A stretch of DNA of 64,000 nucleotides from positions 62,677 to 126,676 of the forward strand of contig JBCCIP010000010.1 of NCBI GenBank assembly GCA_039111475.1. Direction: 5' to 3'. Under the pieces are notes generated by a model. The model saw nothing but the letters and a program-made list of their open reading frames with translations. It ran no database searches and was not told the DNA's origin. Position numbers and translations under genes: made by a program. Of the stretch, positions 49,631-64,000 are shown piece by piece; within the stretch, counting starts at the first letter, position 1; each line of letters begins with the position of its first letter. The stretch is from Pseudomonadota bacterium (GTDB lineage: Bacteria > Pseudomonadota > Gammaproteobacteria > Pseudomonadales > JAUIET01).

Positions 49631-49911
49631 AGACAGTAAAACGATGTGGTTGTGGATTCATTTCTCAATAGTACCTTGTTGGCCGTAGGCATGTATTTCA
49701 ATTCGTATATGTGGGCAAGACTTGAGCCAATCCTACGTTGCTAATCAGCGCTGCAAGAAAACAGACATTGAACGCGGCGCCAACGCAGCTCCGCAGTTGC
49801 GACGAACTACACCTTTGCTGCGGTAACTGACATTGCGCGTTGCTTTCGCGGCATTGTAGTGTGCTAGTGCCACGACACAGAGGTACTAGTTCGCAGCTAA
49901 TGTACACGCTA

Positions 49912-50379
49912 ATGATCTCACTACTTATAAATGAAAAGCCGGTAACACTTGAATTGGAGCCCAACATGCCGTTGCTGTGGGCCTTGAGGGAGCACCTCAA
50001 CTTAACCGGGGTAAAGTTTGGCTGCGGAATAGGCCAGTGCGGTTCATGCACAGTGCACGTTAATGGCGTGGCACAACGAAGCTGCGTAACACCTGTGGCA
50101 TCTGTTGCGGGTAAGCGTGTTACCACGATCGAAGGTTTGGCGGCGTCAGAGCAACAATTGCATCCCGTGCAGCAGGCGTGGATGGCCAATGATGTGCCGC
50201 AGTGCGGCTACTGCCAGGCAGGGCAAATAATGGCCGCCGCGCATTTTCTGCAGAATTTTCCGGAACCCACTGATGAAGACATTGACACCCACATGACCAA
50301 TATTTGTCGCTGTGGGACTTACGTGCGCATTCGAAAAGCAATTCATGACGCAGCACAATTAATTGCCAAGGAGTCTTGA
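49912..50379 (+). CDS. (2Fe-2S)-binding small subunit of a xanthine dehydrogenase / aldehyde oxidoreductase-family molybdoenzyme (IorA-like).
   Basis: Two cluster motifs ([11 protein letters not shown] and CGYCQAG...CRCGTY). The start is uncertain (49900 or 49912). Overlaps the large-subunit start. Confidence 0.8.
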
Positions 50380-52652
50380 ATATGTCTTCGTTATCCAGCT
50401 CCCAACTTTCCAGTTCCAGACTGCGCCGCCGGCAATTTCTGATAGCCGGTGCTGGATTGTCGGGCTCGTTTGTTCTGGGGTTGCCGATGCACTTATTGGC
50501 AAAGCCAAGCCAGGACGCGGAACCCGTTGATGCCCATGGAACACTGGGCTTCTTTATCGAAATTGACAGCGAAGGTGTGATTACAATTGGCAGTAATCAG
50601 CCAGAAATTGGACAGGGTGTGAGAACCGCTCTGCCAATGCTGGTTGCCGAAGAGCTGGATGCCGACTGGAAAAACGTACGTGTGACGCAAATGCCGCTGG
50701 GCATTGTCAAAACGGCTGATGGCTTCGCCTGGAAATATGGTGGCCAGGGCGTTGGTGGCAGCACCGGCCTGACCAGCAATTGGGAGTTTATGCGCCAGGT
50801 CGGCGCGCAAGCACGTGCTCAACTGATGTCGGCAGCAGCCCAGCGCTGGAATGTGCCAATACAGGAATGCGGTACTCGCCCAGGTTATGTGATTCACCAA
50901 GGTGGCCAGCGAGAGCTAAGCTATGGTCAACTTGTCGGAACGGCCGCGCGGTTGCGACTACCGGGTGAGACCGCGCCGCTAAAAAAACATCAAGACTATC
51001 GAATTATTGGTAAACCAACGGCCAGCGTTGATACGAAAGACGTTGTAACGGGAACCGCTATCTATGGCATAGACAGTGCTGTCGAAGGAATGCGCTACGC
51101 TGTTGTTGCGCGTTCTCCAGTTTTGAATGGGCGAGTGAAAGCATTTGATGCCAAAGATGCGTTGAAGATTCCAGGTGTTTTGCAGGTCTTTCGATTGGAA
51201 GGCCCTAAGCCAGGCGACCCTTACCGGATTCTGGCGGATGGCGTGGCGGTGGTGGCAACATCAACGTGGACGGCCATGAAAGCCCGGGAGGCATTGCGCA
51301 TTGAGTGGGCTTCAAACCCCAATGCAAACGACAACAGCACCGATTTCTGGCAAGACAATCAGCAGATGTTAAAGGCGAAAGGACAAGTAGTTTTGGAGGA
51401 CGGCGATTTTGATCTAGCCGTGTCGAATGCTGCACGTCGTATGGTTCGCCAATACAAAGTGCCGTTTGTATCTCACGCGCCATTGGAGCCACAGAACTGT
51501 ATTGTTCATGTAAAAGAAAACTCCGCGCACGTGATTGCGCCAACCCAAATGCCCAGCGGCGCATCTCGCGCCGTGAACGCAGTGACTGGCATAGAGCGTG
51601 AACACATTAGTGTTGAGATGACCAAGGTGGGTGGCGGCTTCGGTCGCCGCCTGAGCAATGATTACGTCGCGGAAGCGGCCATGATTTCACAGCAAAGCGG
51701 CCTGCCAATCAAGCTGCAGTGGAGCCGTGAAGACGACATCAAAAATGACTTCTATCGGCCCGCCGGTTTGCACGAAATGCAGGCGGGTTTAGATGCACGT
51801 GGCCGGGTCATTGCCTGGGCGCAGCGACTGGCAAGCGCGAGCAAATATTACCGGCGACCCAACATGCCCGATGAGAATCTTTGGGAAGCAGAACTCTATG
51901 TTGATGACTTCCCAAGAAGGCGAGTTGAGAACGTACGGCTGGAATATTTTCACAACGCTATTGGCCTGCCACGTGGCTCCTGGCGCGCACCAGCGCACAC
52001 AGCCAATGCCTTTGTTGTGCAAAGCTTTATCGATGAAATTGCGCACGCGAGCGGGCAAGATCCACTGCAACTGCAGCTGGATCTGTTAGGCAAAGAGGAG
52101 GATCTGGAGTACTCAAATCATGGCGGCCCGGTATTTAATCCAGGCCGGCTCGCCAAACTTTTGAAGTTTGTTGCCCAGCAAATTGACTATAAGCGGAGCA
52201 GACCGGAAGGCGTTGGTGTAGGACTGGCAAGCCATTTCACCTTTGGTGGCTATGCGGCGCACGCAATAGAAGTGTCGGTAAACAACGCAGGTCGATTGAC
52301 TATTGAGAAAATTGTTGCAGCCATTGATTGCGGGCTGGTGGTTAATCCACAGTCCGTCAGGGCTCAACTGGAAGGCGGCACCATCGATGGCATTAGCACT
52401 GCGTTGGGTCTGGAGATTACTGTCAAGGATGGTCAGGTGCAGCAAAGCAATTTCCATGACTACCCATTAATGCGGATTGCACAAGTGCCTGAACAATTTG
52501 AGACACACATTCTGCCTTATGACGACGTGCCGACAGGCGTGGGAGAAATGGGCATACCGTCTGCAGCCCCTGCGCTTACCAATGCAATCTTTGCGGCCAG
52601 TGGTCAGCGAATTAGAGCGCTACCTATTAAGGATCAGCTGAAAAAGTCTTGA
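50376..52652 (+). CDS. Molybdopterin-binding large subunit of an IorB-like aldehyde oxidoreductase or isoquinoline 1-oxidoreductase, Tat-exported.
   Basis: Twin-arginine signal [14 protein letters not shown], a length of about 758 aa and family-typical sequence character. Confidence 0.85.
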
Positions 52653-52658
52653 AGCTCC

Positions 52659-53354
52659 CTAGCTACCAGCATCTTGCAAAATACCTTCTCCTTTCACGAA
52701 CCATGAAACACCAAAAGCGACAATAGCTAACGCTTCCAACCAAAACACGAACTCAAGCTCATTCTGCCAATCCAATTGAACAAGCGCATATTGAACACCA
52801 ATCAGCACAACAGAGCTGACAATCGCATAACCACACACGGTGTACACTTTGTTGCGTTTGATTTTCGCTGCCGTAGGTTCTTGATCCGGACTGAATTTCT
52901 TGAACAGCACCAGGCAAAAATAGGCTAGGGCAAAGAAGAAAAACGCGGCAAACGTCGCGTGCAATAGATCGCAGACTATTTGAGTCGGCGTTAAGGTTTC
53001 TAATTCGGGTGCTACCGGAAACAAAGCAACCCCAATCGCGCTAATGCCGGCAACATCGCCCGCTAGATTGTCTCGCCAGTCCCACCCTTGATACGTCATC
53101 AGAAAAACGGCTATCGCAAACAAGCTGCCTACAAACACGTCACCCATACGGGTGTAGTAGTAGGCGCTCATGGTTTTCTCTATGCCTTCTGCACCGAGTA
53201 ATAGATTGCCTATCGCCAGTACGAAGGGCAGAGAGATGCCTATTACGCCGACTATGCGTCGGAGAGATAAATAGGAGATAACCATGGAGGTGCTAGGCAT
53301 TTGCAGGGATCGTATGCATTGTCGGCTGGCGAGTATAAATGAAGTCTGTACCAC
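52659..53354 (-). CDS. Hypothetical integral membrane protein.
   Basis: Five or six hydrophobic helices with no recognisable motif. The start is uncertain. Confidence 0.45.
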   Translation of the reverse strand: MVQTSFILASRQCIRSLQMPSTSMVISYLSLRRIVGVIGISLPFVLAIGNLLLGAEGIEKTMSAYYYTRMGDVFVGSLFAIAVFLMTYQGWDWRDNLAGDVAGISAIGVALFPVAPELETLTPTQIVCDLLHATFAAFFFFALAYFCLVLFKKFSPDQEPTAAKIKRNKVYTVCGYAIVSSVVLIGVQYALVQLDWQNELEFVFWLEALAIVAFGVSWFVKGEGILQDAGS

Positions 53355-53481
53355 AGTTGTGGGAGCGGTGGCTCAAAGTCAGGCCTGCGGATGCTCAAAA
53401 TTGCAAAAATCATGGTTTTTCTGTCACCACTGGTCTGAATCTGGATGTTAATTGAGGCCATTCATTCAATAAGTTCTTTAA

Positions 53482-53551
53482 TTACAGTAGGTTACAGAAA
53501 TTACAGTTTCAGTTATTGTTACATGTAATAATTTGATATATCACATGTAAG
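53482..53551. promoter_or_regulatory. AT-rich control region. Three TTACAG repeats phased at about 10 bp, then the perfect palindrome TTACATGTAA and a second ACATGTAA copy 23 bp downstream.
   Basis: Read directly. Immediately upstream of the pspA-like operon. Confidence 0.4.
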
Positions 53552-53567
53552 TTGTTAGGATATGTGC

Positions 53568-54188
53568 ATGGAAAAGAAAACATCAGCCCACTATCAGCGC
53601 GAGTTCCGAAGAAGGCTCAGAGAACAAGGACTGATAAAGAAAGAGGTCTGGATTCACCCTGAACGTGCTTCACAGCTTAGGGAGATCGAGAAACGACTGA
53701 GATTTAGTGGCGAAAACGTATTAACGGACGGAGAAAATAGCATGACGAGTAGAACCAACGGCACATGGCATACAACGGATCTTTACACTGAGATTGAGAA
53801 GTCGGAGCTGATCAGTTCTGGCGCCGCGAGCGTCGAACTTATAGAAGGCGTGGATCCCAGTATTCATCTCGAGATGCGCGACTACGGCGACCTGCCTATT
53901 TTTGTCACGGTTGCCGGCGAGCAAATAACGGCCGACGCTGTTTTATGGCCGAAATCAGCCGTTTCAAATGCAGCGGGCTTTAATGACGCAGTACTGCGAA
54001 CACACAAGTACTTCCCGTTATCCACGATCAGTTTGGAAACGGTGAATGGCGAAGATTATTACTACATGTTTGGCGCATTGAGCGCGGCATCGGGTCTGGA
54101 TGACGTGCTGGTAGAAATAGACGCGCTGGCTTCAAACGTAATTAACGCGACTGAAGCTTATGGCGAGTTTCTGAAGTTTGATTCGTAG
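53568..54188 (+). CDS. Hypothetical protein with a basic N-terminal extension and a C-terminal domain resembling YjfI/DUF2170 (assigned by gene-order analogy).
   Basis: It is the first gene of the operon directly preceding a PspA/YjfJ-like gene, as in E. coli yjfI-yjfJ. N-terminus KKTSAHYQREFRRRLREQGL. ATG at 53568 has an AGGA Shine-Dalgarno. Confidence 0.45.
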   Translation: MEKKTSAHYQREFRRRLREQGLIKKEVWIHPERASQLREIEKRLRFSGENVLTDGENSMTSRTNGTWHTTDLYTEIEKSELISSGAASVELIEGVDPSIHLEMRDYGDLPIFVTVAGEQITADAVLWPKSAVSNAAGFNDAVLRTHKYFPLSTISLETVNGEDYYYMFGALSAASGLDDVLVEIDALASNVINATEAYGEFLKFDS

Positions 54189-54223
54189 TTAGATACACAT
54201 ACGCATATCCAAAGGAGAGAGTT

Positions 54224-54937
54224 ATGAATATTTGGGCAAAGATGATCACAGCACTTCGCGGAGGTGTTAATGAAGCCGGAGAGGCGATAGTTGACACTCA
54301 AGCACTGCGAATACTTGATCAAGAAGTGCGCGACGCAGCTGAAGAGCTGAAGCAATCGAAAGACGGTTTGGCTAACATTATTGCACAGCAAAAATTGGCG
54401 GAGGAGAAGGTCGCTAAGTTAGAGAGTGAGATAAAAGCTCATGAAGGCTATGCTGTGAAAGCACTTGAGAAGGGCGATGAAGTGCTTGCGTTAGAAGTTG
54501 CCGAAAAAATCGCCAATATGGAAGTTAGTTTGGCGACGGAACGGAATTCTGCCAATGAGTTTGCGGCCAGCGCTGCTAAACTTAAGTCAGCTATCAAGCA
54601 TGCTGAAAGTAATATAAGGCGTTTGAAGCAGCAGGTTGATACAGTTCGTGCCACCGAGAGCGTACAGCGCGCCCAAGCGGCAGTGTCAGAACGGCACAGC
54701 GGTTCAAACTCAAAAATGCGCACTGCCATGGATTCCCTTGAAAGAATCAAGGAAAAACAGGCCCTGAATGAGGCAAAAATGAACGCCGCAGAAGAGCTAA
54801 GCGAAGAGCTTGGGGAAGAATCTTTACAGGCAAAATTGGCGGAAGCGGGAATTACTGGGTCTGAGCGAAGTGCCGAAGACATTTTGGCAAAATTGAAGCC
54901 AAAGGTGAAAAAGGCAACGACTAAGCGTAGCAAATAG
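54224..54937 (+). CDS. PspA/IM30/Vipp1 family protein (YjfJ-like), a member of the ESCRT-III superfamily.
   Basis: All-helical, coiled-coil-rich protein of 237 aa. N-terminus MNIWAKMITALRGGVNEAGEAIVDTQALRILDQEV matches the PspA-family amphipathic helix and core. GGAGAGAG Shine-Dalgarno. Confidence 0.8.
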   Translation: MNIWAKMITALRGGVNEAGEAIVDTQALRILDQEVRDAAEELKQSKDGLANIIAQQKLAEEKVAKLESEIKAHEGYAVKALEKGDEVLALEVAEKIANMEVSLATERNSANEFAASAAKLKSAIKHAESNIRRLKQQVDTVRATESVQRAQAAVSERHSGSNSKMRTAMDSLERIKEKQALNEAKMNAAEELSEELGEESLQAKLAEAGITGSERSAEDILAKLKPKVKKATTKRSK

Positions 54938-54974
54938 AATCTCGGCAACAATAGGCTAGAGGAGAGGGAGAAAG

Positions 54975-55679
54975 ATGTTCGCAATTCTGTTAAGTGACAA
55001 GATGAATCCGTTCTACGAGAACATTGCGTCCTTTCCTACCGTTGTATTCACGTTTCTTCTGGTGCTGTGCACGCTCTATTGGCTTACTGCCATATTGGGA
55101 TTAGTCAGCGTCGACATGCTTGATTTTGATCTGCCCGAAATGGCCGGCCTCGAAGATCTAAATGCTGACGTTGATTCTACCAATCCTGATGTGCTTGCGG
55201 GTTTGATGTTGCGATATGGCCTACACGGTGTACCAGTAACCATCATAGTCAGCTTGTTAGCCATGATTGGCTGGATCGTTTGTTATTACCTGGTGCACTT
55301 CGGCTTCAGTTACACTCCCGATTGGATATCAGATAGCTTTGTTCGTTATCTGGTCGGAATACCGATATTCCTCGTTTCGCTCTACCTGGCTGTGCTTGCC
55401 ACCGCTGTGCTTATAAAACCGCTTCGACCGTTCTTTCTTCGGGCAACGCAAGAAACCACAAAATATGTGATAGGTCAGACGGCGGTAGTTCGAACTTCCA
55501 GAGTGGACAACGGATTCGGTGAGGCGCTGTTGGATGACGGTGGTGCCGGGTTGATTCTGAAAGTGCGTTGCACAGATGGGGAAACGTTTGAGAAGGGAGA
55601 TCGTGTAGTGCTGATCGACCAAATTGAAGGTACCGATTTTTATCGAGTGATCTCTGAAGCAGAATTCACTGATTCCTAG
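54975..55679 (+). CDS. YqiJ/DUF1449-like inner membrane protein with a C-terminal NfeD-like OB-fold.
   Basis: N-terminal TM helices, then a soluble C-terminus (GQTAVVRTSRVDNGFGEALLDDGGAGLILKVRCTDGETFEKGDRVVLIDQIEG) typical of short NfeD proteins, which partner with SPFH proteins. Confidence 0.65.
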   Translation: MFAILLSDKMNPFYENIASFPTVVFTFLLVLCTLYWLTAILGLVSVDMLDFDLPEMAGLEDLNADVDSTNPDVLAGLMLRYGLHGVPVTIIVSLLAMIGWIVCYYLVHFGFSYTPDWISDSFVRYLVGIPIFLVSLYLAVLATAVLIKPLRPFFLRATQETTKYVIGQTAVVRTSRVDNGFGEALLDDGGAGLILKVRCTDGETFEKGDRVVLIDQIEGTDFYRVISEAEFTDS

Positions 55680-55732
55680 CGAGTGCTGGTAGCTCGTTAC
55701 AAACAAAAAGGACACTAACTAAGGAAAATACT

Positions 55733-57643
55733 ATGGCTGATTTATCGATTTTGATGCCGATTCTCGTATGGATAGGCGTGGCATTCGTAACATTGCTTGG
55801 TCTGGCGGGTTTGTTCAAAGCGTTTTACTACAAAGTAGAGCAGGGCACCGCGCTTATCGTCAATGACATGAGCTCAACACCCAAGGTCCATTTTACCGGC
55901 GCTCTGGTGTATCCAATCATCTACAAAAAGGAGCTGATGAAAATCTCCTTGATAACCCTGGAGGTTGATCGCAGGGCTAAAGACGGCCTGATTTGTAATG
56001 ACAATATGCGTGCAGACATAACGGTAGCGTTTTATTTGCGGGTTAATGAAACCGCTCAAGACGTGCTAAAGGTTGCAAAGTCGATAGGTGCTGAACGAGC
56101 TTCTGATCGTGAAGCAGTTCATGACTTGTTTGCCGCCAAGTTTTCTGAAGCACTGAAAACCGTGGGCAAGCAGATTGACTTTGTACAGTTGTTTGAGAAT
56201 CGCCAGCAATTTCGTGAAAAAATCATCGAAGTTATTGGCGAAGATTTGAATGGTTATGTACTGGAAGATGTTGCAATCGACTATCTGGAACAAACTCCAA
56301 AAGAACATTTGGACCCAAGTAATATTCTCGACTCAGAAGGCATAAAGAAGATTACGGAGTTAACCGCTGAGCAGAACGTTCGAACCAATATCCTTGAACG
56401 GGACGAAGAACTTGCGATCAAGAAGAAAAATGTAGAAACAGTGGAAGCAATGCTAGAGCTTGAACGCCAGCAAGCAGATGCCGAAGCGCGACAAGAAAGA
56501 GAAGTGCTGACCATACGCGCTCGTGAAGAAGCAGAAACGAAAAAAGTGCAGGAAGAGGAGCGTCAAAAAGCTGAGCAGGCGACGATTACTGTAGATCAGG
56601 AGCTGATGGTACAAACAGAAAACCAGAAGCGCGAAGTAGAGGTAGCGGAGCAAAACCGTCAGCGCGCTGTTGCGGTAGAAGAAGAAAAGGTCACACGTGC
56701 TCGTGACCTGGAGATAGTATCCAGGGAAAGAGAAGTTGACGTAGAGCGCGTGCTTGCAGAGAAAGCCGTGGAAGTTGAGAAGAAAGAAATCGCCAACGTA
56801 ATTCGTGAGCGAGTCGCCGTCGATAAAACAGTGGCCATTGAGGAAGAGCGAATTAAGGAAGTGAGAGAAGTATCAGATGCTGACCGTAAGAAGCAAGTGC
56901 AGGTACTCGCTGCTGAGGCAAATGCTCAGGAAGGCAAGGTGAAAGAGGTCACAGCTGCGGCCGCTGAAGAAGAAGCTGCGAAACACAAAGCAGCTGAAAT
57001 CACTACAATTGCGGCGGCAAACCTTGATGCTGCTGATATGGAAGCCAAAGCACAAATCCGCTTGGCCGAAGCCATTCAGGCTGACCAAGCGGCACCGGGT
57101 CTTGCGGAAGCTCAGGTACAAGATGCGAAAGCAGACTCTTTGCAGAAAGAAGGTCTTGCTGAAGCTGCTGTGATCAATGCCAAAGGCGACGCCGAAGCCA
57201 GTGCCTCGAAAGAAATTGGAATGGCCGGAGCGGAAGTCACTCGCCAGCAATTCAAGGCTGAGGCCGATGGCTTGGTGGATAAGTTCGATGCTATGAATTC
57301 AATGAGTGATAATGCCCGCGAGCATGAGGAATTCCGCATGGCGCTTGAAACAGCCTTTAAGGAAGCCATTGCCGCGATTGAAGCAGGTAAGGAAATCGCC
57401 AAAGAAAACGCTGAAGTGTTGGGTACAGCGCTGGAACGAGCGAAGATCGATATTGTGGGTGGAGAAGATCACTTCTTCGACAACTTCGCCAAGTCTTTGT
57501 CCATTGGCAAAGCCGTGGATGGACTGGCCAACAAGAGCGACACACTTGGCTTGATCCTCGACTCTGTGCTCAAGCGTGCAAGCGGTGACGTGGTTGCTGT
57601 AGACCCGGAGCAAGAAGCGCCCGCCTCCGAGCCGGCCGCCTAA
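55733..57643 (+). CDS. Flotillin / SPFH (band-7) domain protein, YqiK-like.
   Basis: N-terminal TM helix, an SPFH domain (VEQGTALIVNDMSSTPKVHFTGALVYPIIYKKELMKISLITLEV), then a long EA-rich coiled-coil flotillin tail. Confidence 0.85.
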   Translation: MADLSILMPILVWIGVAFVTLLGLAGLFKAFYYKVEQGTALIVNDMSSTPKVHFTGALVYPIIYKKELMKISLITLEVDRRAKDGLICNDNMRADITVAFYLRVNETAQDVLKVAKSIGAERASDREAVHDLFAAKFSEALKTVGKQIDFVQLFENRQQFREKIIEVIGEDLNGYVLEDVAIDYLEQTPKEHLDPSNILDSEGIKKITELTAEQNVRTNILERDEELAIKKKNVETVEAMLELERQQADAEARQEREVLTIRAREEAETKKVQEEERQKAEQATITVDQELMVQTENQKREVEVAEQNRQRAVAVEEEKVTRARDLEIVSREREVDVERVLAEKAVEVEKKEIANVIRERVAVDKTVAIEEERIKEVREVSDADRKKQVQVLAAEANAQEGKVKEVTAAAAEEEAAKHKAAEITTIAAANLDAADMEAKAQIRLAEAIQADQAAPGLAEAQVQDAKADSLQKEGLAEAAVINAKGDAEASASKEIGMAGAEVTRQQFKAEADGLVDKFDAMNSMSDNAREHEEFRMALETAFKEAIAAIEAGKEIAKENAEVLGTALERAKIDIVGGEDHFFDNFAKSLSIGKAVDGLANKSDTLGLILDSVLKRASGDVVAVDPEQEAPASEPAA

Positions 57644-57664
57644 GCCGGCGCGGAGCACAGCTGA

Positions 57665-60600
57665 ATGGCTGAAGAACACGAAGAACACGCATCGCTAGTT
57701 GAGGCTGCTGTAGCCGAAGGAGGCGCTTATGAAATTATTCGCAAGCGCTTGGAGGCACAAGGTCTTACGCTGGAAGAGAAGACGCTCGCCCTGAATGCTG
57801 CGCGTACAGAGGAGATTGGCAGTACCGATCTCGAAACTATTGCGCGAGTGCGGGTGAGAACGGAAAACAATTGCATTGCCAGAGACCTGGTTCAGGTTGG
57901 CGACTGTTTGCTGTTTGGCTACAACGTCTTCATTGGCCTTAAAAAACAGACAAAGGTTGAAGACGTATTTGCGTTATTCAGGCTGTCTGACAAAGAAGAC
58001 GGCCATGGCATAGAACCGGCAGAGCATCAATCAAACTTCCTGACACAGCCGCGTTTTCTCAATGATTTTCGCGAGCTGTATGAATACTACAAAAATGCCC
58101 GCCTGATTCAGCTGACTGTTAACAATGGTAAGTTGCTGGCCGGGTTTCAGATAGGGGAAAAGCACACTGATATTCGTGTATTCCGATGGAGTGTTGGCGC
58201 TGATGGAAGCCGTGTGGAATACATTGATAATCGTGGGGAGCGCGATATTCAATTGCCACCAGCCTTTGATTTTGAATGGCAGGCCAGCAGCAGAGAAGAT
58301 TTTGTGAATGGCCGCCATCCGCACATCAATATTCTGGATACCTTGTTTGTAGACAACCTTGATGGTTCAATCGGCTTTAAAGTAGAAAACAACACAGAAT
58401 CAGGTCTGGGTGTTTTCAGCGAGCCATTGGCAGAAAGCAATCAATCACTCGATGATCTTGACGTATTTTTCGCGAAACTGGGCGATTTGCTGTTACTTCG
58501 CGTGCTTCCGTACCGCGAGGAAGACTGGCGCCATTATGTGTTCAATAGTAATACGCAACTTATTGAGCGAATAGATTCGATTGGCGAGTCTTGCGTTCAA
58601 TTGCCGGAGGATCACGGTTTAATCTACCCCGACGGTTACTATCTGCAAAGCGGTGAGTCAAAGAACTTTGGTGAAATGACCAAAGGCTTTAAGTTCAAGC
58701 GCAGTGTGCGCTCACCCAATGGCGAAGACTACCTGTTTGTGTTCTATGAACCGGCTGCCGGCCGCGTAGCCTTGTTTTCTTACAATCTGATCGAACGGAG
58801 TTTGCAAAACCCTATTTTTGGAAACGGTTATGCAAGAGCTGAAAATGGCAAACTGGTGATTTTTACCTCCGAGGATGAGCCTACCCGTGTTCACCCCATG
58901 CAAGTCTGGCAAACGCCATTCACATCACAGGAATTTGCAGACCAGGAACCAGCGGCACAGACCTTCTTCGGTAAGATAGGCAACTCCGCGCTGGTTCGTG
59001 GGGTATCAGATTTGTATCGAGTGTGTAAGCAAATCCGCCAGCAGCAAGTAACAGCTGTGCATTACGAACGCCTTCAAAAAGACATTGCCAAGGTCTTTGA
59101 TGCTCATTACTGGTTGACCAGCGACGAGCTGGATGGCTTGGACACGGTACTTAAAAGTATCGCTGATACCTCCGAACTTATTATCGATGAATTCGAGAAA
59201 GTGACAGCGATACGGGAACAATCAAGCCTGGCTATTGAGGATGCTGTGCGTAGCCAGGGCAACTTGATTGGCGAGATAGACAACGCCAGTCTGGAGCAAG
59301 TCGCTGACTTTGTGAGTTTTCTCGATCAAATTCGCCACCAGCGTGGACATCTAGCCACAATTGCTGAATATCGATACATTGATGCTGAGCGAATTGCCAC
59401 TCTGGATCAAGCGCTTAAACAGAGAGCGGACGAATTAGGTAAGAAGACTATTGAGTTCCTCGCTGAAGAGCAAGCACTAGTACCTTACACCGAGAAAATA
59501 AAGGCGTTGGAACAGCAGCTGGATGGCGCCAAAACAGCAACTCAATTTGAGCCCTTTATTAATGAAATAGAATCAATAGCGGGCAGTCTTGATCTACTGT
59601 CCGAATTGGTTACCACGCTTAAAGTTGACGATGCAACGGTTCGAACGAAAATCATTGATGGAATATCAGCCGTTTATGCGCAGCTTAACCAAACGAAGGC
59701 AAGCGCCGAGATTAAAAAATCTGACCTAACGTCAGAAGAGGCTGTTGCCCAGTTTGCGGCGCAATTCAAATTACTTTCCCAGAGTGTTAATAATGCGCTC
59801 AGTCTTGCGACTGACCCGGAAAAGTGCGACGAACAGCTGTCGCGGCTGCTGGTTCAGCTTGAAGAACTGGAAAGTCAGTTTGGCGAGCACGACCGCTTCC
59901 TTGGTGACATTGTAGACAAGCGGGAAGAAATCTATGACAGCTTTGAATCGCATAAGCAACAACTGGTAGAAGGCCAGCAAAGGCGCATTGCTGCCTTACA
60001 AAGCGCTGCCGAGCGCATGCTAAACAGCATTGATAAGCGAAGTATCAAGTTCAATGACGCAGATGAACTTAATACCTACCTGGTGTCAGATGCACTGGTG
60101 CTAAAGATCAGCGACCTCACCGATCAACTCAGTGCAATTGGTGGGGATTTGCAAGCAGATGATATTGGCGCACGCCTGAAACTCATCAAAGATCAGGCCT
60201 TGCGTTCTCTGCGAGATAAGTCTGATATTTTTGAATCTGGCGGCAAGGTTATCAAGCTGGGTGACAAGCACAGGTTTACTGTGAATACGGAAGAGCTTGA
60301 CCTAAGCATTATTCCGATTGATGAGCATTTGTCTGTGCATCTAAGTGGTACACAGTATTTTGACAAAATTGAAAACGATGATCTTGAAATACGACGACCC
60401 TATTGGGATGTTGTTCTTGAGTCTGAAAGCAACACCGTTTCCCGGGCAGAGTATCTCGCGTACCAGTTTGCGCTCGCGCTGAGAGCGGGCGATATAGCAA
60501 CTGATGAGCTAGGCAAAGAGCCGTACAGTCATGAGCAGCTGTATCCACTAATTCAAAAGTTTGCGGCACCACTCTATAAGCACGCTTACGAGAAAGGCAT

Positions 60601-62884
60601 ACACGACCATGATGCAGCTCGAATTACCGAGAACTTGCTGCCGATTCTAAAGACGGCTGGCCCGCTGGTGTACTCACCTGAGAGCCGCGCGCTCGCGATG
60701 TCGTTCTGGTACCAGCAAGCGCAGGTTGATACCGATGGGAAGCTCATCGACGTAATCACTCAGAGAGCAAAGTCAGCGTTCGCGCTGAAGAAAGCGCTTA
60801 ACAGCAATAATAGTCTGGACATTTTAATCGCTGATGTCTTGGAACTGATTTCGGAGTATCAACAAGATAAAGGCATAGATGTATCCAGCCAGACGATGAG
60901 TCAAGCTGCCAGCTACCTACTGGCGGAGTTGGAAGAAGGCAAGCCGGAATTCTCAGTGAGCCCCGCAGGGCAAGAGTTGCTGGATCTGTACCATCGCAAG
61001 CTTGGCAAGCGAGCGGTTCAGGGTCATACGAAGTCTATTGCCGGCATGCGGGGCGATCCAATGAGGCAATGGTCACTGAGCCGCGCCTGGTTGCTGGCCC
61101 TTCTGGATGAAATTAAAGACGAGAGCAAGCGAGCGGTGCTAAACGTGTTCGTTGACGAAGCTGTTGCAGTGTTGAATTGGGGCGAAGGTATCGATACTCG
61201 TTGCAGCAACGCGGAGCTGCGCATGTCTGTGGATGGCTTGCTGAGTTCGCATGAGAGAATCTCAGATCAGCGACTGAATTTTACGCTGGATGATTTCATG
61301 CATCGAATGCTACACCATCAGGAAATCTTTATTCCAGAGTACAAACATTTCATTGAACTCAAGCAGCAGATCGCGGCCCAGCAGCGTTCGGATCTTCGCC
61401 TGGAATCCTTCAAGCCAAGACCGCTTAGCTCATTCGTTCGAAACAAACTAATAGATCAGGCCTATCTTCCTATTATCGGCGACAATCTTGCCAAGCAAAT
61501 GGGGACTGTGGGTGACAGCAAGCGTACCGACTTGATGGGTTTACTGATGATGATTTCCCCACCGGGTTATGGCAAAACCACTTTGATGGAGTATGTTGCC
61601 AGTCGACTAGGCTTAATCTTCATGAAAATTAACTGCCCGGCATTGGGGCACGATGTGGTTTCAGTTGATCCGCAACAGGCAAGTAATGCCACTGCACGAC
61701 AGGAACTCGAGAAGCTCAATTTGGCATTTGAGATGGGCAACAACGTGATGCTATATCTGGACGATATCCAGCACACGAATTCCGAGTTTCTGCAAAAATT
61801 TATTTCACTGTGTGATGCGACGCGCCGGATAGAGGGTGTGTGGCGGGGTGATGTAAAGACCTATGACTTACGCGGCAGGCGATTCTGCGTAGTGATGGCT
61901 GGTAACCCGTATACGGAATCTGGTGAGAGCTTCAAAGTGCCAGACATGCTGGCCAATCGTGCCGATATTTACAATTTGGGTGACATACTCAGTGGCATGG
62001 ATGAGGTATTTGCGCTCAGCTACATAGAGAATTGCCTGACGTCCAATTCAACGCTCGCACCGTTAGCGGCCAGAGATATGCAAGATGTATATCGCTTTAT
62101 TGATATGGCCAAAGGGCGTGAAGTGCCGACTACTGACTTGAGTCATAGCTACAGTGGCGCTGAAGTTTCCGAGATTGTGGGTGTTTTGAAAAAGCTGTTT
62201 GTCGTGCAGAACGTTATTCTGCGAATCAATCAGCAATACATTGCATCCGCAGCACAGGAAGATAAGTACAGAGTTGAGCCGCCTTTTTTACTGCAAGGCA
62301 GTTATCGAAACATGAATAAAATGGCTGAAAAAATCTCGGCTGTTATGAATAGCGAAGAACTTGAGCGGCTCATCGATGATCACTATCTAGGCGAAGCTCA
62401 GTTGCTCACAACGGGTACAGAAGCTAATCTGCTCAAACTCGCTGAATTGAGAGGCGGTCTGGATGACGAGCAGGAACAGCGTTGGCAGCAGATAAAAGAC
62501 GATTTCTTGCGCAATAAATCGCTGGGTGGTGATGCAGATGACGTAGGTAATCGAATAGCGACACAACTGGCAGACCTGGTCAACAGCGTCAGTGATCTTG
62601 ATCGGGGACAAGCTGAGCATGATTCAAACTATCTTGCGAAGCTTGCGGCCAGTGCTGAAAAAATTGCTGAAGGACACCCCAGACAGGAACCAAATATAGA
62701 AGTGGTAAACCAGGCCAACCCGGAATTGGCTAATGCAGTGGGTGTACTGACCAACACGATTGAGAGCACTTTGTTCCCAATTCTTCGATCAATGGACAAG
62801 AAATTGGATATTGATTTAAGAACGCAGGAAAAGATGCACGCTATCTCAGAGCAATTGCGCGCGCTTCAAAAAAGCGTCGAGTAA
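57665..62884 (+). CDS. Giant (1739 aa) cytoplasmic protein with a C-terminal MoxR/AAA_5-type AAA+ ATPase module. The N-terminal 1300 aa or so are unassigned.
   Basis: Walker A PPGYGKTT (around 61559-61582), Walker B MLYLDDIQH (around 61748-61771), and a sensor/Arg region VVMAGNPYTESGESFKVPDMLANRADIY that matches the MoxR pattern NPxExxG...DRF. Long helical or coiled-coil segments upstream. No signal peptide or TM segment. Starts 21 nt after the flotillin gene. Confidence 0.8.
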   Translation: MAEEHEEHASLVEAAVAEGGAYEIIRKRLEAQGLTLEEKTLALNAARTEEIGSTDLETIARVRVRTENNCIARDLVQVGDCLLFGYNVFIGLKKQTKVEDVFALFRLSDKEDGHGIEPAEHQSNFLTQPRFLNDFRELYEYYKNARLIQLTVNNGKLLAGFQIGEKHTDIRVFRWSVGADGSRVEYIDNRGERDIQLPPAFDFEWQASSREDFVNGRHPHINILDTLFVDNLDGSIGFKVENNTESGLGVFSEPLAESNQSLDDLDVFFAKLGDLLLLRVLPYREEDWRHYVFNSNTQLIERIDSIGESCVQLPEDHGLIYPDGYYLQSGESKNFGEMTKGFKFKRSVRSPNGEDYLFVFYEPAAGRVALFSYNLIERSLQNPIFGNGYARAENGKLVIFTSEDEPTRVHPMQVWQTPFTSQEFADQEPAAQTFFGKIGNSALVRGVSDLYRVCKQIRQQQVTAVHYERLQKDIAKVFDAHYWLTSDELDGLDTVLKSIADTSELIIDEFEKVTAIREQSSLAIEDAVRSQGNLIGEIDNASLEQVADFVSFLDQIRHQRGHLATIAEYRYIDAERIATLDQALKQRADELGKKTIEFLAEEQALVPYTEKIKALEQQLDGAKTATQFEPFINEIESIAGSLDLLSELVTTLKVDDATVRTKIIDGISAVYAQLNQTKASAEIKKSDLTSEEAVAQFAAQFKLLSQSVNNALSLATDPEKCDEQLSRLLVQLEELESQFGEHDRFLGDIVDKREEIYDSFESHKQQLVEGQQRRIAALQSAAERMLNSIDKRSIKFNDADELNTYLVSDALVLKISDLTDQLSAIGGDLQADDIGARLKLIKDQALRSLRDKSDIFESGGKVIKLGDKHRFTVNTEELDLSIIPIDEHLSVHLSGTQYFDKIENDDLEIRRPYWDVVLESESNTVSRAEYLAYQFALALRAGDIATDELGKEPYSHEQLYPLIQKFAAPLYKHAYEKGIHDHDAARITENLLPILKTAGPLVYSPESRALAMSFWYQQAQVDTDGKLIDVITQRAKSAFALKKALNSNNSLDILIADVLELISEYQQDKGIDVSSQTMSQAASYLLAELEEGKPEFSVSPAGQELLDLYHRKLGKRAVQGHTKSIAGMRGDPMRQWSLSRAWLLALLDEIKDESKRAVLNVFVDEAVAVLNWGEGIDTRCSNAELRMSVDGLLSSHERISDQRLNFTLDDFMHRMLHHQEIFIPEYKHFIELKQQIAAQQRSDLRLESFKPRPLSSFVRNKLIDQAYLPIIGDNLAKQMGTVGDSKRTDLMGLLMMISPPGYGKTTLMEYVASRLGLIFMKINCPALGHDVVSVDPQQASNATARQELEKLNLAFEMGNNVMLYLDDIQHTNSEFLQKFISLCDATRRIEGVWRGDVKTYDLRGRRFCVVMAGNPYTESGESFKVPDMLANRADIYNLGDILSGMDEVFALSYIENCLTSNSTLAPLAARDMQDVYRFIDMAKGREVPTTDLSHSYSGAEVSEIVGVLKKLFVVQNVILRINQQYIASAAQEDKYRVEPPFLLQGSYRNMNKMAEKISAVMNSEELERLIDDHYLGEAQLLTTGTEANLLKLAELRGGLDDEQEQRWQQIKDDFLRNKSLGGDADDVGNRIATQLADLVNSVSDLDRGQAEHDSNYLAKLAASAEKIAEGHPRQEPNIEVVNQANPELANAVGVLTNTIESTLFPILRSMDKKLDIDLRTQEKMHAISEQLRALQKSVE

Positions 62885-64000
62885 TCAAGCCAATGCAAAA
62901 ACGGTAGCCGTCCAAAGCAACGCTGCCATACCTGCGGCAAAACTTGCCGGTACGATCTGTGTTTTCACGTGATCTGTTAAATCGCAGCCTGTGGTCATTG
63001 CGCTAAGTATCGTTGTATCGGATATTGGGGAGCATTGATCACCGTAAACGCTGCCATTGAGAACCGTCGCAAAACAAACACCCATATACAGCTCTGGATT
63101 CGATAAGCCTTGCGAATGTGCGACAGCCCATGCGAGTGGCATCGCGAGTGGAAAGGCTATTGCATAAGTGCCCCAACTGGTGCCCGTCGAAAAAGCCGTG
63201 ACCATGGTTATTAGCAGCAGGCAGGCCGGCAGAATCCAGTAGGGTATTGTTTGTCCGAGCAGTTCTACCAAATACAGACCGCCTCCTGCTTCCTTGCTAA
63301 CCGAGCCAACCGTAATCGCGAGCATAAGTATTACTGAGGCAACTACCACGCCTTTTAGCCCATCTCCGAAACCTTCCATAAGATCGGAAAGGCTCATTCC
63401 TTTTATCAAAGCAACACCGGCTGAAGCAAGTAAGGCAGCACCAAATGCCCAGTTGACCCGCGGTGTGCCAGTGACTACAAAAGTGCCTACGGCAAGCCCT
63501 AGAATAAGTAGTAGTGGCAGAAAGAATTCGAATACCTGTGGTGAGTAATAGTCCGGAACGCGATTTAGTTCAAGTTCCTTGGCGCTTAGTGGTCTGGCAC
63601 CTGGCGCATCTAACTGACCCGTTTCCTGCGCGCGTTGCATGGCATTTCGAATACCGCGGCCGCTGAATCGAGTGATCCCCAGACTGACCAGAAGTGTGCC
63701 AAGCACTGCAAAAATACTGTAATAACTGAATACTACGCTGCTGAAAAAGAAGGCAATTCGATCGGTCTCAGTAGCCAGAAAAGCAACGCCAGGTACAAAA
63801 ATTAGTGCCTGTATGTAGGCTGGCCATGCATTGAATGCCAGTAGAGAGGCAATGGGCGACGCCGTTGAATCTACGATGTAACTCATTTCCTTGCAATTTG
63901 TAGGCACGTCGCTTTCCTGAAGCCCGAAGCTTTTGCATAGTACGTTGGCGAGGGTTCGATCAGCAAACCAGTCCAGCCGCGCATCATCTCGAAAAACAGG
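62885..64000 (-). CDS. NhaC family Na+/H+ antiporter. 5'-partial: the reading frame stays open to the window edge.
   Basis: Polytopic membrane protein with the NhaC-like stretch [20 protein letters not shown]. The frame continues without a stop beyond 63907 to position 64000. Confidence 0.7.

What the first reader, a model, noticed from the sequence alone, without database searches (positions are those of the whole stretch)
53355..62884. Composite operon: YjfI-like, PspA/IM30 (ESCRT-III superfamily), NfeD-like YqiJ, flotillin, and a giant MoxR-type AAA+ protein
Five co-directional genes with 21-53 nt spacers form one transcription unit behind a dedicated AT-rich control region. The unit joins two gene pairs that occur at separate loci in E. 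coli K-12 (yjfI-yjfJ, a PspA homolog; and yqiJ-yqiK, the NfeD-like/flotillin pair), and then adds a 1739-aa cytoplasmic AAA+ ATPase. PspA/IM30/Vipp1 proteins are bacterial ESCRT-III homologs. In archaea and eukaryotes, ESCRT-III polymers are remodelled by a dedicated AAA+ ATPase, Vps4. Here a PspA-family protein and an SPFH scaffold are genetically coupled to a very large AAA+ protein of the MoxR/AAA_5 clade rather than the Vps4 clade, and the usual MoxR partner, a VWA protein, is not apparent. I propose that this is an uncharacterised membrane-stress, membrane-remodelling or microdomain-organising machine. In that model the giant ATPase acts on PspA and/or flotillin assemblies.
Basis: partly seen in the sequence, partly recalled or inferred. 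Interest (0 to 1): 0.85.

Follow-up and report, generated by a model that had tools for sequence, protein, structure and literature searches.

The report
Known PspA–flotillin–giant ATPase membrane operon
The five genes form a real, conserved operon, but it is the already described "bac" cluster of Pseudomonas aeruginosa (a PspA–flotillin–giant ATPase membrane-stress module) found in another gammaproteobacterium; what this check adds is a conserved repressor-type promoter in front of it.

Summary
Five co-directional genes with 21–53 nt spacers encode a YjfI/DUF2170 protein, a PspA/YjfJ protein, a 3-TM YqiJ/NfeD-like protein, a YqiK-type flotillin and a 1739-aa cytoplasmic AAA+ protein.

The unit is not undescribed. 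It is the counterpart of P. aeruginosa bacABCDE (PA3732–PA3728), shown there to be co-transcribed. It also matches the [quoted passage not shown] operon class of Ravi et al. 2024.

In 68 related genomes, YqiJ–flotillin–ATPase is invariant (68/68). The YjfI–PspA pair is present in 51/68. The ATPase is therefore tied first to the flotillin/NfeD pair, not to PspA.

The AAA+ fold is clear, but its clade (MoxR or other) is unresolved. No VWA, MIT or TM element was found.

New here: the "AT-rich control region" is a σ70-type promoter whose −35 box lies between two TYACATGTRA palindromes. Its −10 box sits 6–7 nt before the ATG, which suggests a leaderless mRNA. Palindrome pairs occur in 42/50 loci whose first gene carries a conserved ~45-aa N-terminal domain, and in 0/19 loci without it. 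This suggests direct autorepression by BacA. No σ54 site was found.

Verdict: new member of a known kind; the mechanism is still open.

The parts
53519..53528 (.). Distal operator-like palindrome TTACATGTAA, upstream of the −35 box
   Evidence: this and the next site are the only two TYACATGTRA sites in the 64 kb window (0.3 expected). Equivalent sites occur in 42/50 related loci at fixed positions.
53533..53538 (+). −35-like hexamer TTGATA, lying between the two palindromes
   Evidence: TTGATA-17-TAGGAT with a TG before the second hexamer. Relatives have TTGAC(A) at the same position.
53541..53550 (.). Proximal operator-like palindrome TCACATGTAA, inside the −35/−10 spacer
   Evidence: the proximal core lies 24–27 nt before the ATG in 36 of 42 aligned loci.
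53556..53561 (+). −10-like hexamer TAGGAT, 6 nt before ATG 53568; implies a leaderless or near-leaderless mRNA
   Evidence: L057 has a perfect TTGACA-17-TATAAT followed by 7 nt and the ATG. An SD-like tetramer is present in only 3/42 loci.
53568..54188 (+). bacA/yjfI-like gene (206 aa). Residues ~1–45 are a conserved basic N-terminal domain (candidate DNA-binding domain); residues ~66–204 are DUF2170 with a CesT-like chaperone fold.
   Evidence: (NF050185 BacA, 286 bits, profile positions 1–204 of 206). The Logan gene call is 206 aa.
54224..54937 (+). PspA/IM30-family gene (bacB/yjfJ-like), ESCRT-III superfamily
   Evidence: 2e-46; 35% identical to YjfJ.
54975..55679 (+). 3-TM YqiJ/NfeD-like membrane protein gene (bacC-like)
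   Evidence: invariant synteny.
55733..57643 (+). Flotillin (YqiK-type SPFH) gene: N-terminal TM segment, then a long Glu/Ala-rich helical region (bacD/PaFlo3-like)
   Evidence: 53–79% identical in 77 related loci.
57665..62884 (+). Giant cytoplasmic AAA+ protein gene (bacE/PA3728-like, 1739 aa)
57770..59110 (+). DUF3686 region of the giant protein (residues 36–482): β-propeller preceded by an N-terminal helix
   Evidence: In the model, strands span residues 57–420 at pLDDT ~70–88. Foldseek hits are to propeller proteins (Sec12, clathrin terminal domain, WD40 proteins).
58964..60220 (+). Long helical / coiled-coil region of the giant protein (residues ~434–852, includes DUF7902 at 603–685)
61421..61984 (+). 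AAA+ core of the giant protein (residues ~1253–1440). Motifs: Walker A SPPGYGKT, Walker B YLDD, sensor-1 GNP, candidate Arg finger LANRAD.
   Evidence: These residues are invariant in 15 and in 30 homologues. Pfam AAA/AAA_5 hits. AAA+ fold hits.

Best explanation
This is the counterpart, in an unidentified gammaproteobacterium, of the bacABCDE 'biofilm-associated cluster' of P. aeruginosa. It belongs to the CesT-like/PspA + YqiJ + flotillin + propeller–coiled-coil–AAA+ operon class.

Shown:
- The five gene identities.
- Their conserved order.
- An invariant YqiJ–flotillin–ATPase core, with the YjfI/PspA dyad as a frequent add-on.
- A cytoplasmic ATPase built of an N-terminal helix, a β-propeller, ~400 residues of long helices, a helical domain and one AAA+ module with invariant nucleotide-binding motifs.
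- A conserved σ70-type promoter bracketed by two TYACATGTRA palindromes, whose presence tracks a conserved N-terminal domain on the first protein.

Inferred mechanism:
1. The flotillin, anchored by one TM helix, forms an SPFH scaffold on the cytoplasmic face of the inner membrane together with the 3-TM NfeD-like YqiJ protein.
2. The giant ATPase, presumably a ring oligomer, docks on that scaffold through its propeller and coiled-coil parts. It uses ATP to assemble, remodel or disassemble the scaffold, and, where PspA is present, the PspA polymer recruited to it.
3. The PspA-family protein supplies the membrane-sealing ESCRT-III-type polymer. The CesT-like domain of the first protein holds it soluble.
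4. The first protein is also the operon's repressor. Its N-terminal domain binds the two palindromes that overlap the promoter. Engagement or withdrawal of PspA at stressed membranes changes repression, a partner switch analogous to PspA–PspF.
5. The mRNA is probably leaderless.
For: Identity:
- Gene assignments.
- Literature match: (PMC10948618; PMC11237479 section 19).
- In P. paraeruginosa the same order is followed by a PLD gene, consistent with the sixth bac gene, bacF.

Linkage:
- 68/68 for the triad and 51/68 for the pentad.

ATPase anatomy:
-.

Regulation:
- Palindromes are at fixed positions in 42/50 loci, against 0.024 expected per locus.
- No palindrome pair occurs in any of the 19 loci lacking the N-domain protein.
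- Promoter alignment and lack of an SD sequence.
- The N-domain is conserved (10 invariant columns of 51). Seventeen of 27 members give weak hits to Pfam MazE-like antitoxin PF11455.
- A bacA::Tn mutant of PA14 over-produces BacB–F 6–13-fold (PMC10948618).
- AlphaFold2 predicts a BacA–BacB contact with probability 0.981 (PMC13092808).
Against: - There is no direct evidence for any protein–protein contact of the ATPase, for ATP hydrolysis, or for DNA binding by the first protein.
- Walker B is DD rather than DE, and Walker A starts with S. These are invariant in the 15 and 30 homologues aligned but atypical.
- The N-domain has no significant match to any solved DNA-binding protein. Its Pfam similarity is sub-threshold (best E 0.0013).
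- Derepression in the PA14 transposon mutant could be read-through from the transposon.
- P. aeruginosa authors propose σ54 control instead. paFlo3 deletion in PA14 has only slight phenotypes (PMC13086221).
- The 80 loci are the closest relatives (48–58% identity), so the 68/68 figure is not a survey of the whole family.
Confidence: 0.65

Rival explanations
1. One reading: the giant ATPase is primarily a Vps4-like disassemblase for the PspA (ESCRT-III-type) polymer, and flotillin/YqiJ are only a platform.
For: PspA/Vipp1 belong to the ESCRT-III superfamily, and bacteria lack Vps4 (review PMC7619361). PspA is in the operon in 51/68 loci. Ravi et al. made a comparable ESCRT/Vps4 suggestion for PspA–AAA+ associations.
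Against: 15/68 loci keep YqiJ–flotillin–ATPase with no PspA nearby. Ravi et al. report that such abbreviated operons are the more widespread form. No MIT-like domain was seen in the model. The C-terminal peptide conserved in this PspA is also present in E. coli YjfJ, whose yjfI–yjfC locus encodes no such ATPase.
Confidence: 0.2
2. The giant protein is a nucleic-acid-directed ('DNA repair') ATPase, or part of an anti-phage or abortive-infection system. The membrane proteins would serve as effectors or sensors.
For: The Pfam DUF3686 label is 'ATPase involved in DNA repair', and NCBI names homologues 'DNA repair ATPase'. In some relatives a PLD/HKD (Nuc-like) gene and, in L021, a ~900-aa ORF carrying a GPPGTGKS P-loop motif that was not scanned against any family library (read here, untested, as a possible helicase) follow the operon.
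Against: The name belongs to a domain of unknown function, and no paper in the library mentions DUF3686. No significant PADLOC hit was found; only coiled-coil noise at E≥3.7e-4. No nuclease or helicase lies in this window's operon. The invariant neighbours are membrane-scaffold proteins.
Confidence: 0.07
3. The operon is a σ54/enhancer-binding-protein-controlled Psp regulon, as proposed for P. aeruginosa bac. The palindromes would be incidental or would bind another factor.
For: Macé 2008 and Wallart 2024 propose a −24/−12 site upstream of pa3732. Classical psp operons are σ54-dependent.
Against: No TGGCAC-N5-TTGCW match with ≤2 mismatches lies in 53355–53561. No pspF-like gene is adjacent. 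A conserved −35/−10 pair sits at fixed distance from the ATG in 36/42 loci. The published site was defined relative to a 16-kDa (short) PA3732 annotation, which omits the conserved N-terminal 60 residues.
Confidence: 0.08
4. The genes are neighbours that merely share a transcript. The yjfIJ-like pair, the yqiJK-like pair and the ATPase would work independently.
For: The two pairs are at separate loci in E. coli K-12. SPFH deletions in PA14 have slight phenotypes.
Against: The same order is kept across orders of Gammaproteobacteria and in Burkholderiales-, Longimicrobium- and Zetaproteobacteria-affiliated genomes. All products rise together in the PA14 bacA mutant.
Confidence: 0.03

Closest known systems
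P. aeruginosa bacABCDEF, 'biofilm-associated cluster' (PA3732–PA3727 / PA14_16140–16200)
   Same: Same first five genes in the same order. In P. paraeruginosa locus L027: BacA 52%, PspA 56%, YqiJ 42%, flotillin 62% and ATPase 53% identity. The same palindromes and −35/−10 layout lie upstream.
   Different: No sixth gene here (PLD/HKD, consistent with bacF). The ATPase stop codon abuts a convergent antiporter gene. ORF1 scores 286 bits against NCBIfam BacA, below the 300-bit equivalog cut-off. The host is a distant gammaproteobacterium.
[quoted passage not shown] 2024, mSystems)
   Same: The component list and domain architectures match point by point. The optional PLD and the abbreviated triad were also seen here.
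   Different: That paper gives no promoter or operator analysis and does not describe an N-terminal domain on the DUF2170 protein in the section read. Rhomboid (25/72) and Zn-ribbon (15/80) neighbours were found here.
E. coli K-12 yjfI–yjfJ and yqiJ–yqiK pairs
   Same: Homologous proteins: 39%, 35%, 22% and 30% identity.
   Different: They are at separate loci, and no giant ATPase lies at either E. coli locus fetched. YjfI (133 aa) lacks the N-terminal domain. yjfIJ continues into polyamine-related genes.
ESCRT-III/Vps4 (archaea, eukaryotes)
   Same: An ESCRT-III-superfamily polymer gene is genetically coupled to an AAA+ ATPase.
   Different: No MIT domain was found, and the ATPase architecture is different (propeller + coiled coil, 1739 aa). 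The AAA+ clade is unresolved. The coupling is dispensable in 15/68 loci.
MoxR-family AAA+ proteins (NorQ/CbbQ/RavA) with VWA partners
   Same: Foldseek's best hits are NorQ and CbbQ. There is a 'GNP…RAD' sensor-1/Arg-finger pattern. AAA_5 scores above its Pfam cut-off.
E. coli PspF–PspA regulatory partner switch
   Same: In both, a PspA-binding regulator is proposed to couple membrane stress to operon expression.
   Different: Here the candidate regulator is a small repressor domain fused to a CesT-like chaperone acting at a σ70-type promoter. It is not an AAA+ enhancer-binding activator at a σ54 promoter.

Membership tests
bac-type operon (CesT-like/PspA + YqiJ + flotillin + propeller-AAA+) | First gene encodes a DUF2170/CesT-like protein | tested here: met
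   Pfam 9e-48; PDB 8q8o 1e-37; NCBIfam BacA 286 bits, just under the 300-bit cut-off.
bac-type operon (CesT-like/PspA + YqiJ + flotillin + propeller-AAA+) | Second gene encodes a PspA_IM30 protein of the YjfJ type | tested here: met
   Pfam 2e-46; 35% identical to YjfJ.
bac-type operon (CesT-like/PspA + YqiJ + flotillin + propeller-AAA+) | 3-TM YqiJ/YuaF (NfeD-like) protein | tested here: met
   3 TM segments; BLASTP to YqiJ 1e-4; Pfam NfeD only 0.18; conserved position in 68/68 loci. Sequence evidence alone is weak.
bac-type operon (CesT-like/PspA + YqiJ + flotillin + propeller-AAA+) | Flotillin with TM + band-7 + coiled coil | tested here: met
   BLASTP to YqiK 2e-47 over 463 aa, including the SPFH region; one N-terminal TM segment. 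Pfam Band_7 itself was not detected.
bac-type operon (CesT-like/PspA + YqiJ + flotillin + propeller-AAA+) | AAA+ ATPase with N-terminal β-propeller and coiled coil | tested here: met
   DUF3686 and AAA hits; model with strands at 57–420 and helices at 434–852; propeller hits; AAA+ fold hits.
bac-type operon (CesT-like/PspA + YqiJ + flotillin + propeller-AAA+) | Co-transcription of the genes | not testable with these tools
   Spacers are 21–53 nt, and terminator-like matches are no more frequent than in shuffled sequence (14 found vs 10.0 ± 3.2 expected). RT-PCR evidence exists only for PA14.
MoxR / AAA_5 clade of AAA+ | Sequence or fold closer to MoxR-type than to other AAA+ clades | tested here: inconclusive
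MoxR / AAA_5 clade of AAA+ | Partner VWA/MIDAS protein encoded alongside | tested here: not met
   No VWA domain was found in the five proteins or in the two flanking genes. ORFs read in the flotillin–ATPase gaps of seven relatives, and the three downstream neighbours scanned with Pfam, showed no VWA domain; most neighbours of the relatives were not scanned.
Vps4-type ESCRT-III ATPase | N-terminal MIT domain and a compact single-AAA architecture | tested here: not met
   The N-terminus is a helix plus β-propeller. The protein is 1739 aa. Vps4 is only one of many equal AAA+ fold hits.
Classical Psp regulon (pspF–pspABC) | σ54 promoter, PspF activator and PspB/PspC partners | tested here: not met
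   No σ54 consensus lies in 53355–53561. Flanking genes are a 231-aa membrane protein and an antiporter. No PspB or PspC was found among the operon products.
SPFH–NfeD pair | An SPFH gene immediately preceded or followed by an NfeD-family gene | tested here: met
   ORF3 and ORF4 are adjacent. They are homologous to the E. coli yqiJ–yqiK pair.
Known anti-phage defence systems (PADLOC) | Significant match of any component to a defence-system profile | tested here: not met
   Only coiled-coil-type hits at E≥3.7e-4.

The most novel reading that the evidence does not exclude
The propeller–coiled-coil–AAA+ protein is the missing ATP-driven remodeller of bacterial membrane scaffolds. It would be a functional analogue of Vps4, acting on flotillin/NfeD cages and, through them, on PspA (ESCRT-III-type) polymers. 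The whole module would be switched on by a chaperone-fused autorepressor (BacA) that reads out free PspA, from a leaderless transcript.
Probability: 0.25. Interest if true: 0.8.

Novelty: new member of a known kind. Interest (0 to 1): 0.38.

Why it matters
A 2025 review of bacterial ESCRT-III systems states that a Vps4-like ATPase appears absent in bacteria, so how PspA polymers are regulated is unknown (PMC7619361). This operon class is among the candidates for an answer, and it is genetically tractable in P. aeruginosa. This window adds only one more example.

The comparison does sharpen the question in two ways. First, the ATPase is tied to flotillin/NfeD before PspA. Second, the operon appears to be run by a simple, testable repressor–operator circuit on a σ70-type, probably leaderless promoter, rather than by σ54. 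The published P. aeruginosa work uses a short BacA annotation that omits the candidate DNA-binding domain, so that work may need re-reading.

Tried and rejected
- Pfam and NCBIfam on ORF3 and ORF4 gave nothing significant. The assignments had to be rescued by direct BLASTP to E. coli YqiJ/YqiK and by synteny.
- Sequence search of the PDB with the giant protein and with the flotillin gave nothing.
- A literature search for 'DUF3686' found 0 papers.
- PADLOC gave no defence-system match.
- A σ54 consensus search found no site in the control region.
- A profile search of the BacA N-domain against PDB sequences found no significant hit.
- Genes inserted between flotillin and ATPase in seven relatives were checked for a hidden VWA or other conserved partner. 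By reading their translations (not scanned against family libraries) they look heterogeneous: duplicated ~310-aa ORFs and small toxin–antitoxin-like ORFs, plus one Zn-ribbon protein confirmed by tblastn. They were dismissed as conserved partners.
- Identity correlations between the ATPase and each partner (r 0.59–0.78) were computed, but they do not discriminate partners because all are inherited together.
- The intrinsic-terminator scan found nothing above the shuffled expectation.


Full report
**1. Observation**

The region holds five + strand ORFs:
- 53562–54188
- 54224–54937
- 54975–55679
- 55733–57643
- 57665–62884

The spacers are 35, 37, 53 and 21 nt. Upstream lies a divergent 231-aa membrane-protein gene (52659–53354). 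Downstream lies a convergent Na+/H+-antiporter-family gene, whose stop codon directly abuts the stop codon of the last gene (62884/62885). G+C dips to 0.42 in the 53250–53749 window.

**2. Gene identities**

- **ORF1** is a DUF2170 protein (9e-48). It is 39% identical to E. coli YjfI. It matches the crystallised P. aeruginosa BacA (8q8o) at 1e-37. It scores 286 bits over positions 1–204 of the 206-position NCBIfam model 'biofilm formation regulator BacA', whose cut-off is 300.
- **ORF2** is a PspA_IM30 protein (2e-46), 35% identical to YjfJ.
- **ORF4** has no Pfam hit even at E=10. It aligns with E. coli flotillin YqiK at 30% over 463 residues (2e-47) and has one N-terminal TM helix.
- **ORF3** is the weakest call: Pfam NfeD 0.18 and YqiJ_N 0.87, and 22% identity at 1e-4 to the C-terminal half of YqiJ. 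It has three TM segments and always sits just before the flotillin gene in relatives (see section 4).
- **ORF5** (1739 aa) carries DUF3686 (residues 36–482; 7.5e-188), DUF7902 (603–685) and a weak AAA/AAA_5 match at 1294–1419. It has no TM segment.

**3. The operon is already known**

The NCBIfam hit led to the literature.
- Macé et al. 2008 (PMC2587700) named PA3729–PA3732 the 'biofilm-associated cluster'.
- Wallart et al. 2024 (PMC10948618) did four things. They extended the cluster to six co-transcribed genes, bacA–F, by RT-PCR. They solved the BacA structure, which has a CesT-like fold. They showed that a bacA transposon mutant over-produces BacB–F 6–13-fold. They proposed σ54 control.
- PaFlo3 (PA14_16180) is the flotillin and PA14_16160 is a short NfeD (PMC13086221).
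- Ravi et al. [quoted passage not shown] They note that abbreviated operons without the dyad are more widespread. For other PspA–AAA+ associations they draw the comparison with Snf7/Vps4.
- An AlphaFold2 screen predicts BacA–BacB binding with probability 0.981 (PMC13092808).

**4. Linkage in other genomes**

The giant protein has more than 4,486 homologues. Most are labelled 'DNA repair ATPase', a name inherited from the Pfam DUF label. No paper in the library mentions DUF3686.

A scan of one genome per species returned 80 loci at 48–58% identity. tblastn with the five window proteins gave these results:

| Loci with ≥5 kb upstream (n = 68) | Count |
|---|---|
| YqiJ–flotillin–ATPase in this order and strand | 68 |
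| Full five-gene order | 51 |
| Triad only | 15 |
| Only one detectable member of the dyad | 2 |

One of the triad-only loci (L037) carries the dyad divergently.

The loci span Cellvibrionales, Pseudomonadales, Xanthomonadales, Orbales/Enterobacterales, methanotrophs, Burkholderiales, and genomes affiliated with Zetaproteobacteria and Longimicrobium.

Accessory genes after the ATPase:
- a rhomboid gene in 25/72 loci;
- a PLD/HKD gene in 25/72 loci;
- a Zn-ribbon protein near 15/80 loci.

None of these occurs anywhere in this 64 kb window. In P. paraeruginosa the PLD gene directly follows the ATPase. This is consistent with bacE being the ATPase and bacF the PLD. That equation is my inference: the passages of the bac papers I read do not describe those two products.

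Genes inserted between flotillin and ATPase in seven loci are heterogeneous, and none looks like a VWA protein. The sample consists of the closest relatives, so the proportions should not be extrapolated to the whole family.

**5. Anatomy of the giant protein**

An AlphaFold2 model of residues 1–1200 (mean pLDDT 76.5) shows:
- an N-terminal helix (6–51);
- a β-rich domain (57–420);
- about 400 residues of long helices (434–852);
- a small β unit (879–901);
- a helical domain (927–1172).

Foldseek matches the β domain to propellers such as Sec12, the clathrin terminal domain and WD40 proteins. It matches the whole model, at very low TM-scores, to propeller + α-solenoid proteins such as nucleoporins, IFT-A and the clathrin heavy chain. 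I treat the latter only as 'propeller followed by helices'.

The block 1253–1440 is almost invariant in 15 and in 30 homologues. It contains SPPGYGKT (Walker A), YLDD (Walker B, DD rather than DE), AGNP (sensor 1) and LANRAD (candidate Arg finger).

In short, the AAA+ fold is confirmed and its clade is unresolved. There is no VWA domain, MIT domain or second P-loop.

**6. The control region (new here)**

Upstream sequences of the first gene were aligned in relatives. They show a fixed layout:
- a TYACATGTRA palindrome;
- about 4 nt;
- a TTGAC(A)-like −35 box;
- a second palindrome inside a 17-nt spacer;
- a TAnnnT −10 box;
- 6–7 nt, then the ATG.

Locus L057 has a perfect TTGACA-17-TATAAT. In the window the elements are:

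| Element | Sequence | Coordinates |
|---|---|---|
| Distal palindrome | TTACATGTAA | 53519–53528 |
| −35 box | TTGATA | 53533–53538 |
| Proximal palindrome | TCACATGTAA | 53541–53550 |
| −10 box | TAGGAT | 53556–53561 |
| Start codon | ATG | 53568 |

. These are the only two such palindromes in the 64 kb window (0.3 expected).

Supporting counts:
- At least two ACATGT cores lie within 150 bp upstream in 42 of 50 loci. The expectation is 0.024 per locus.
- Five Xanthomonadales-type loci carry a TTTCATGTAAG…CTTACATGAAA variant.
- The proximal core is 24–27 nt from the ATG in 36 of 42 loci, and an SD-like tetramer is present in only 3 of 42. I therefore infer a leaderless or near-leaderless mRNA and place the start codon at 53568. 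This agrees with the 206-aa Logan gene call and with the Met that begins most homologues.
- No σ54 consensus is present.

**7. Who binds the palindromes**

The first protein has a strongly conserved ~45-residue N-terminal domain, with consensus KSSAxYQRxxRxRLREQGLVKKEVWILPExAxxLxxxEKxLR and 10 invariant columns.
- It is present in 50 of 53 homologues.
- It is absent from E. coli YjfI.
- It is absent from the crystallised BacA chain (146 aa) and from the 16-kDa PA3732 annotation.
- Seventeen of 27 members give weak hits to Pfam 'MazE-like antitoxin' PF11455 (best E 0.0013).
- There is no solved relative.

In the 19 loci that lack an N-domain-bearing first gene, no paired palindrome is found within 3 kb upstream of the YqiJ gene. 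Four of those loci have a short YjfI-like gene plus PspA.

Together with the published derepression in the bacA mutant, this supports the idea that BacA is a direct autorepressor. DNA binding itself is inferred, not shown.

**8. Mechanism and rivals**

Best-supported reading: this is a membrane-maintenance module. Its core is a flotillin/NfeD scaffold served by a large cytoplasmic AAA+ remodeller. A chaperoned PspA polymer and a chaperone-fused repressor are a frequent extension. Only identities, architecture, linkage and promoter conservation are shown. All contacts and activities are inferred.

Rivals:
- A PspA-centred Vps4 analogue (0.2).
- A DNA-repair or defence function (0.07). PADLOC is negative.
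- σ54/Psp-type control (0.08).
- Functional independence of the modules (0.03).

**9. Verdict**

The unit is a new member of a known, partly studied but mechanistically unsolved operon class. Interest is moderate. The existence of the operon will not surprise a specialist. The ATPase's substrate is a recognised open question (PMC7619361), and the operator/leaderless-promoter/N-domain circuit appears not to have been described.

Noticed in passing
window 53519–53568; L002–L081 upstream of the bacA homologues: Two TYACATGTRA palindromes bracket a σ70-type −35 box, and the −10 box lies 6–7 nt before the ATG. This layout is conserved in 42/50 related loci and absent from 19/19 loci lacking the N-domain BacA. 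It suggests an autorepressed, leaderless promoter. No σ54 site is present.
   Followed up: yes
window 53568–53705 (residues 1–45 of the first protein): There is a conserved basic N-terminal domain with a predicted α–β–α pattern and weak similarity to Pfam MazE-like PF11455. It is missing from E. coli YjfI, from the BacA crystal structure 8q8o and from the 16-kDa PA3732 annotation used in the P. aeruginosa papers. The published 'upstream' σ54 site may therefore lie inside the true coding region.
   Followed up: partly
window 53482–53506: Three direct TTACAG repeats, spaced 10 and 9 nt apart, lie just upstream of the distal palindrome. They were not seen as such in relatives, and their meaning is unknown.
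   Followed up: no
window 62882–62887: The stop codon of the giant gene (TAA, 62882–62884) directly abuts the stop codon of the convergent Na+/H+-antiporter-family gene (TCA on the + strand, 62885–62887). This leaves no intergenic space for a terminator.
   Followed up: no
window 61556–61579 and 61760–61765 (residues 1298–1305 and 1366–1367 of the giant protein): Walker A is SPPGYGKT (Ser instead of the first Gly) and Walker B is DD instead of DE. Both are invariant in the 15 and 30 homologues aligned. This may indicate slow or regulated hydrolysis.
   Followed up: no
L021:15217–19190; L003:15280–16380; L039:14910–16480 and other loci: Relatives often carry, after the ATPase gene, a rhomboid protease gene (25/72), a PLD/HKD gene (25/72), a two-Zn-ribbon protein gene (15/80) and, in some Pseudomonas, a ~900-aa ORF with a P-loop motif that I read as a possible helicase (not scanned against any family library). 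None is present in this window.
   Followed up: partly
L052:8021–9921; L064:6512–9953; L059:6823–8562: In a few relatives, foreign-looking genes are inserted between the flotillin and ATPase genes. By reading the translations only, these are two near-identical ~310-aa ORFs in L052 and small toxin–antitoxin-like ORFs in L064. The junction evidently tolerates insertions.
   Followed up: partly
window 54836–54901 (residues ~205–226 of the PspA-like protein): The C-terminal peptide AGIxGSxxSAxDxLAxL is shared with E. coli YjfJ, whose yjfI–yjfC locus encodes no giant ATPase. It is therefore more likely a docking site for the DUF2170 chaperone than for the ATPase.
   Followed up: no
window 49840–52652: Upstream neighbours encode a [2Fe-2S] small subunit-like protein and a 758-aa molybdopterin (MoCoBD) oxidoreductase with a Tat-like N-terminus. 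They are unrelated to the operon. The same neighbours occur on the Logan contig SRR22824298_158927.
   Followed up: no
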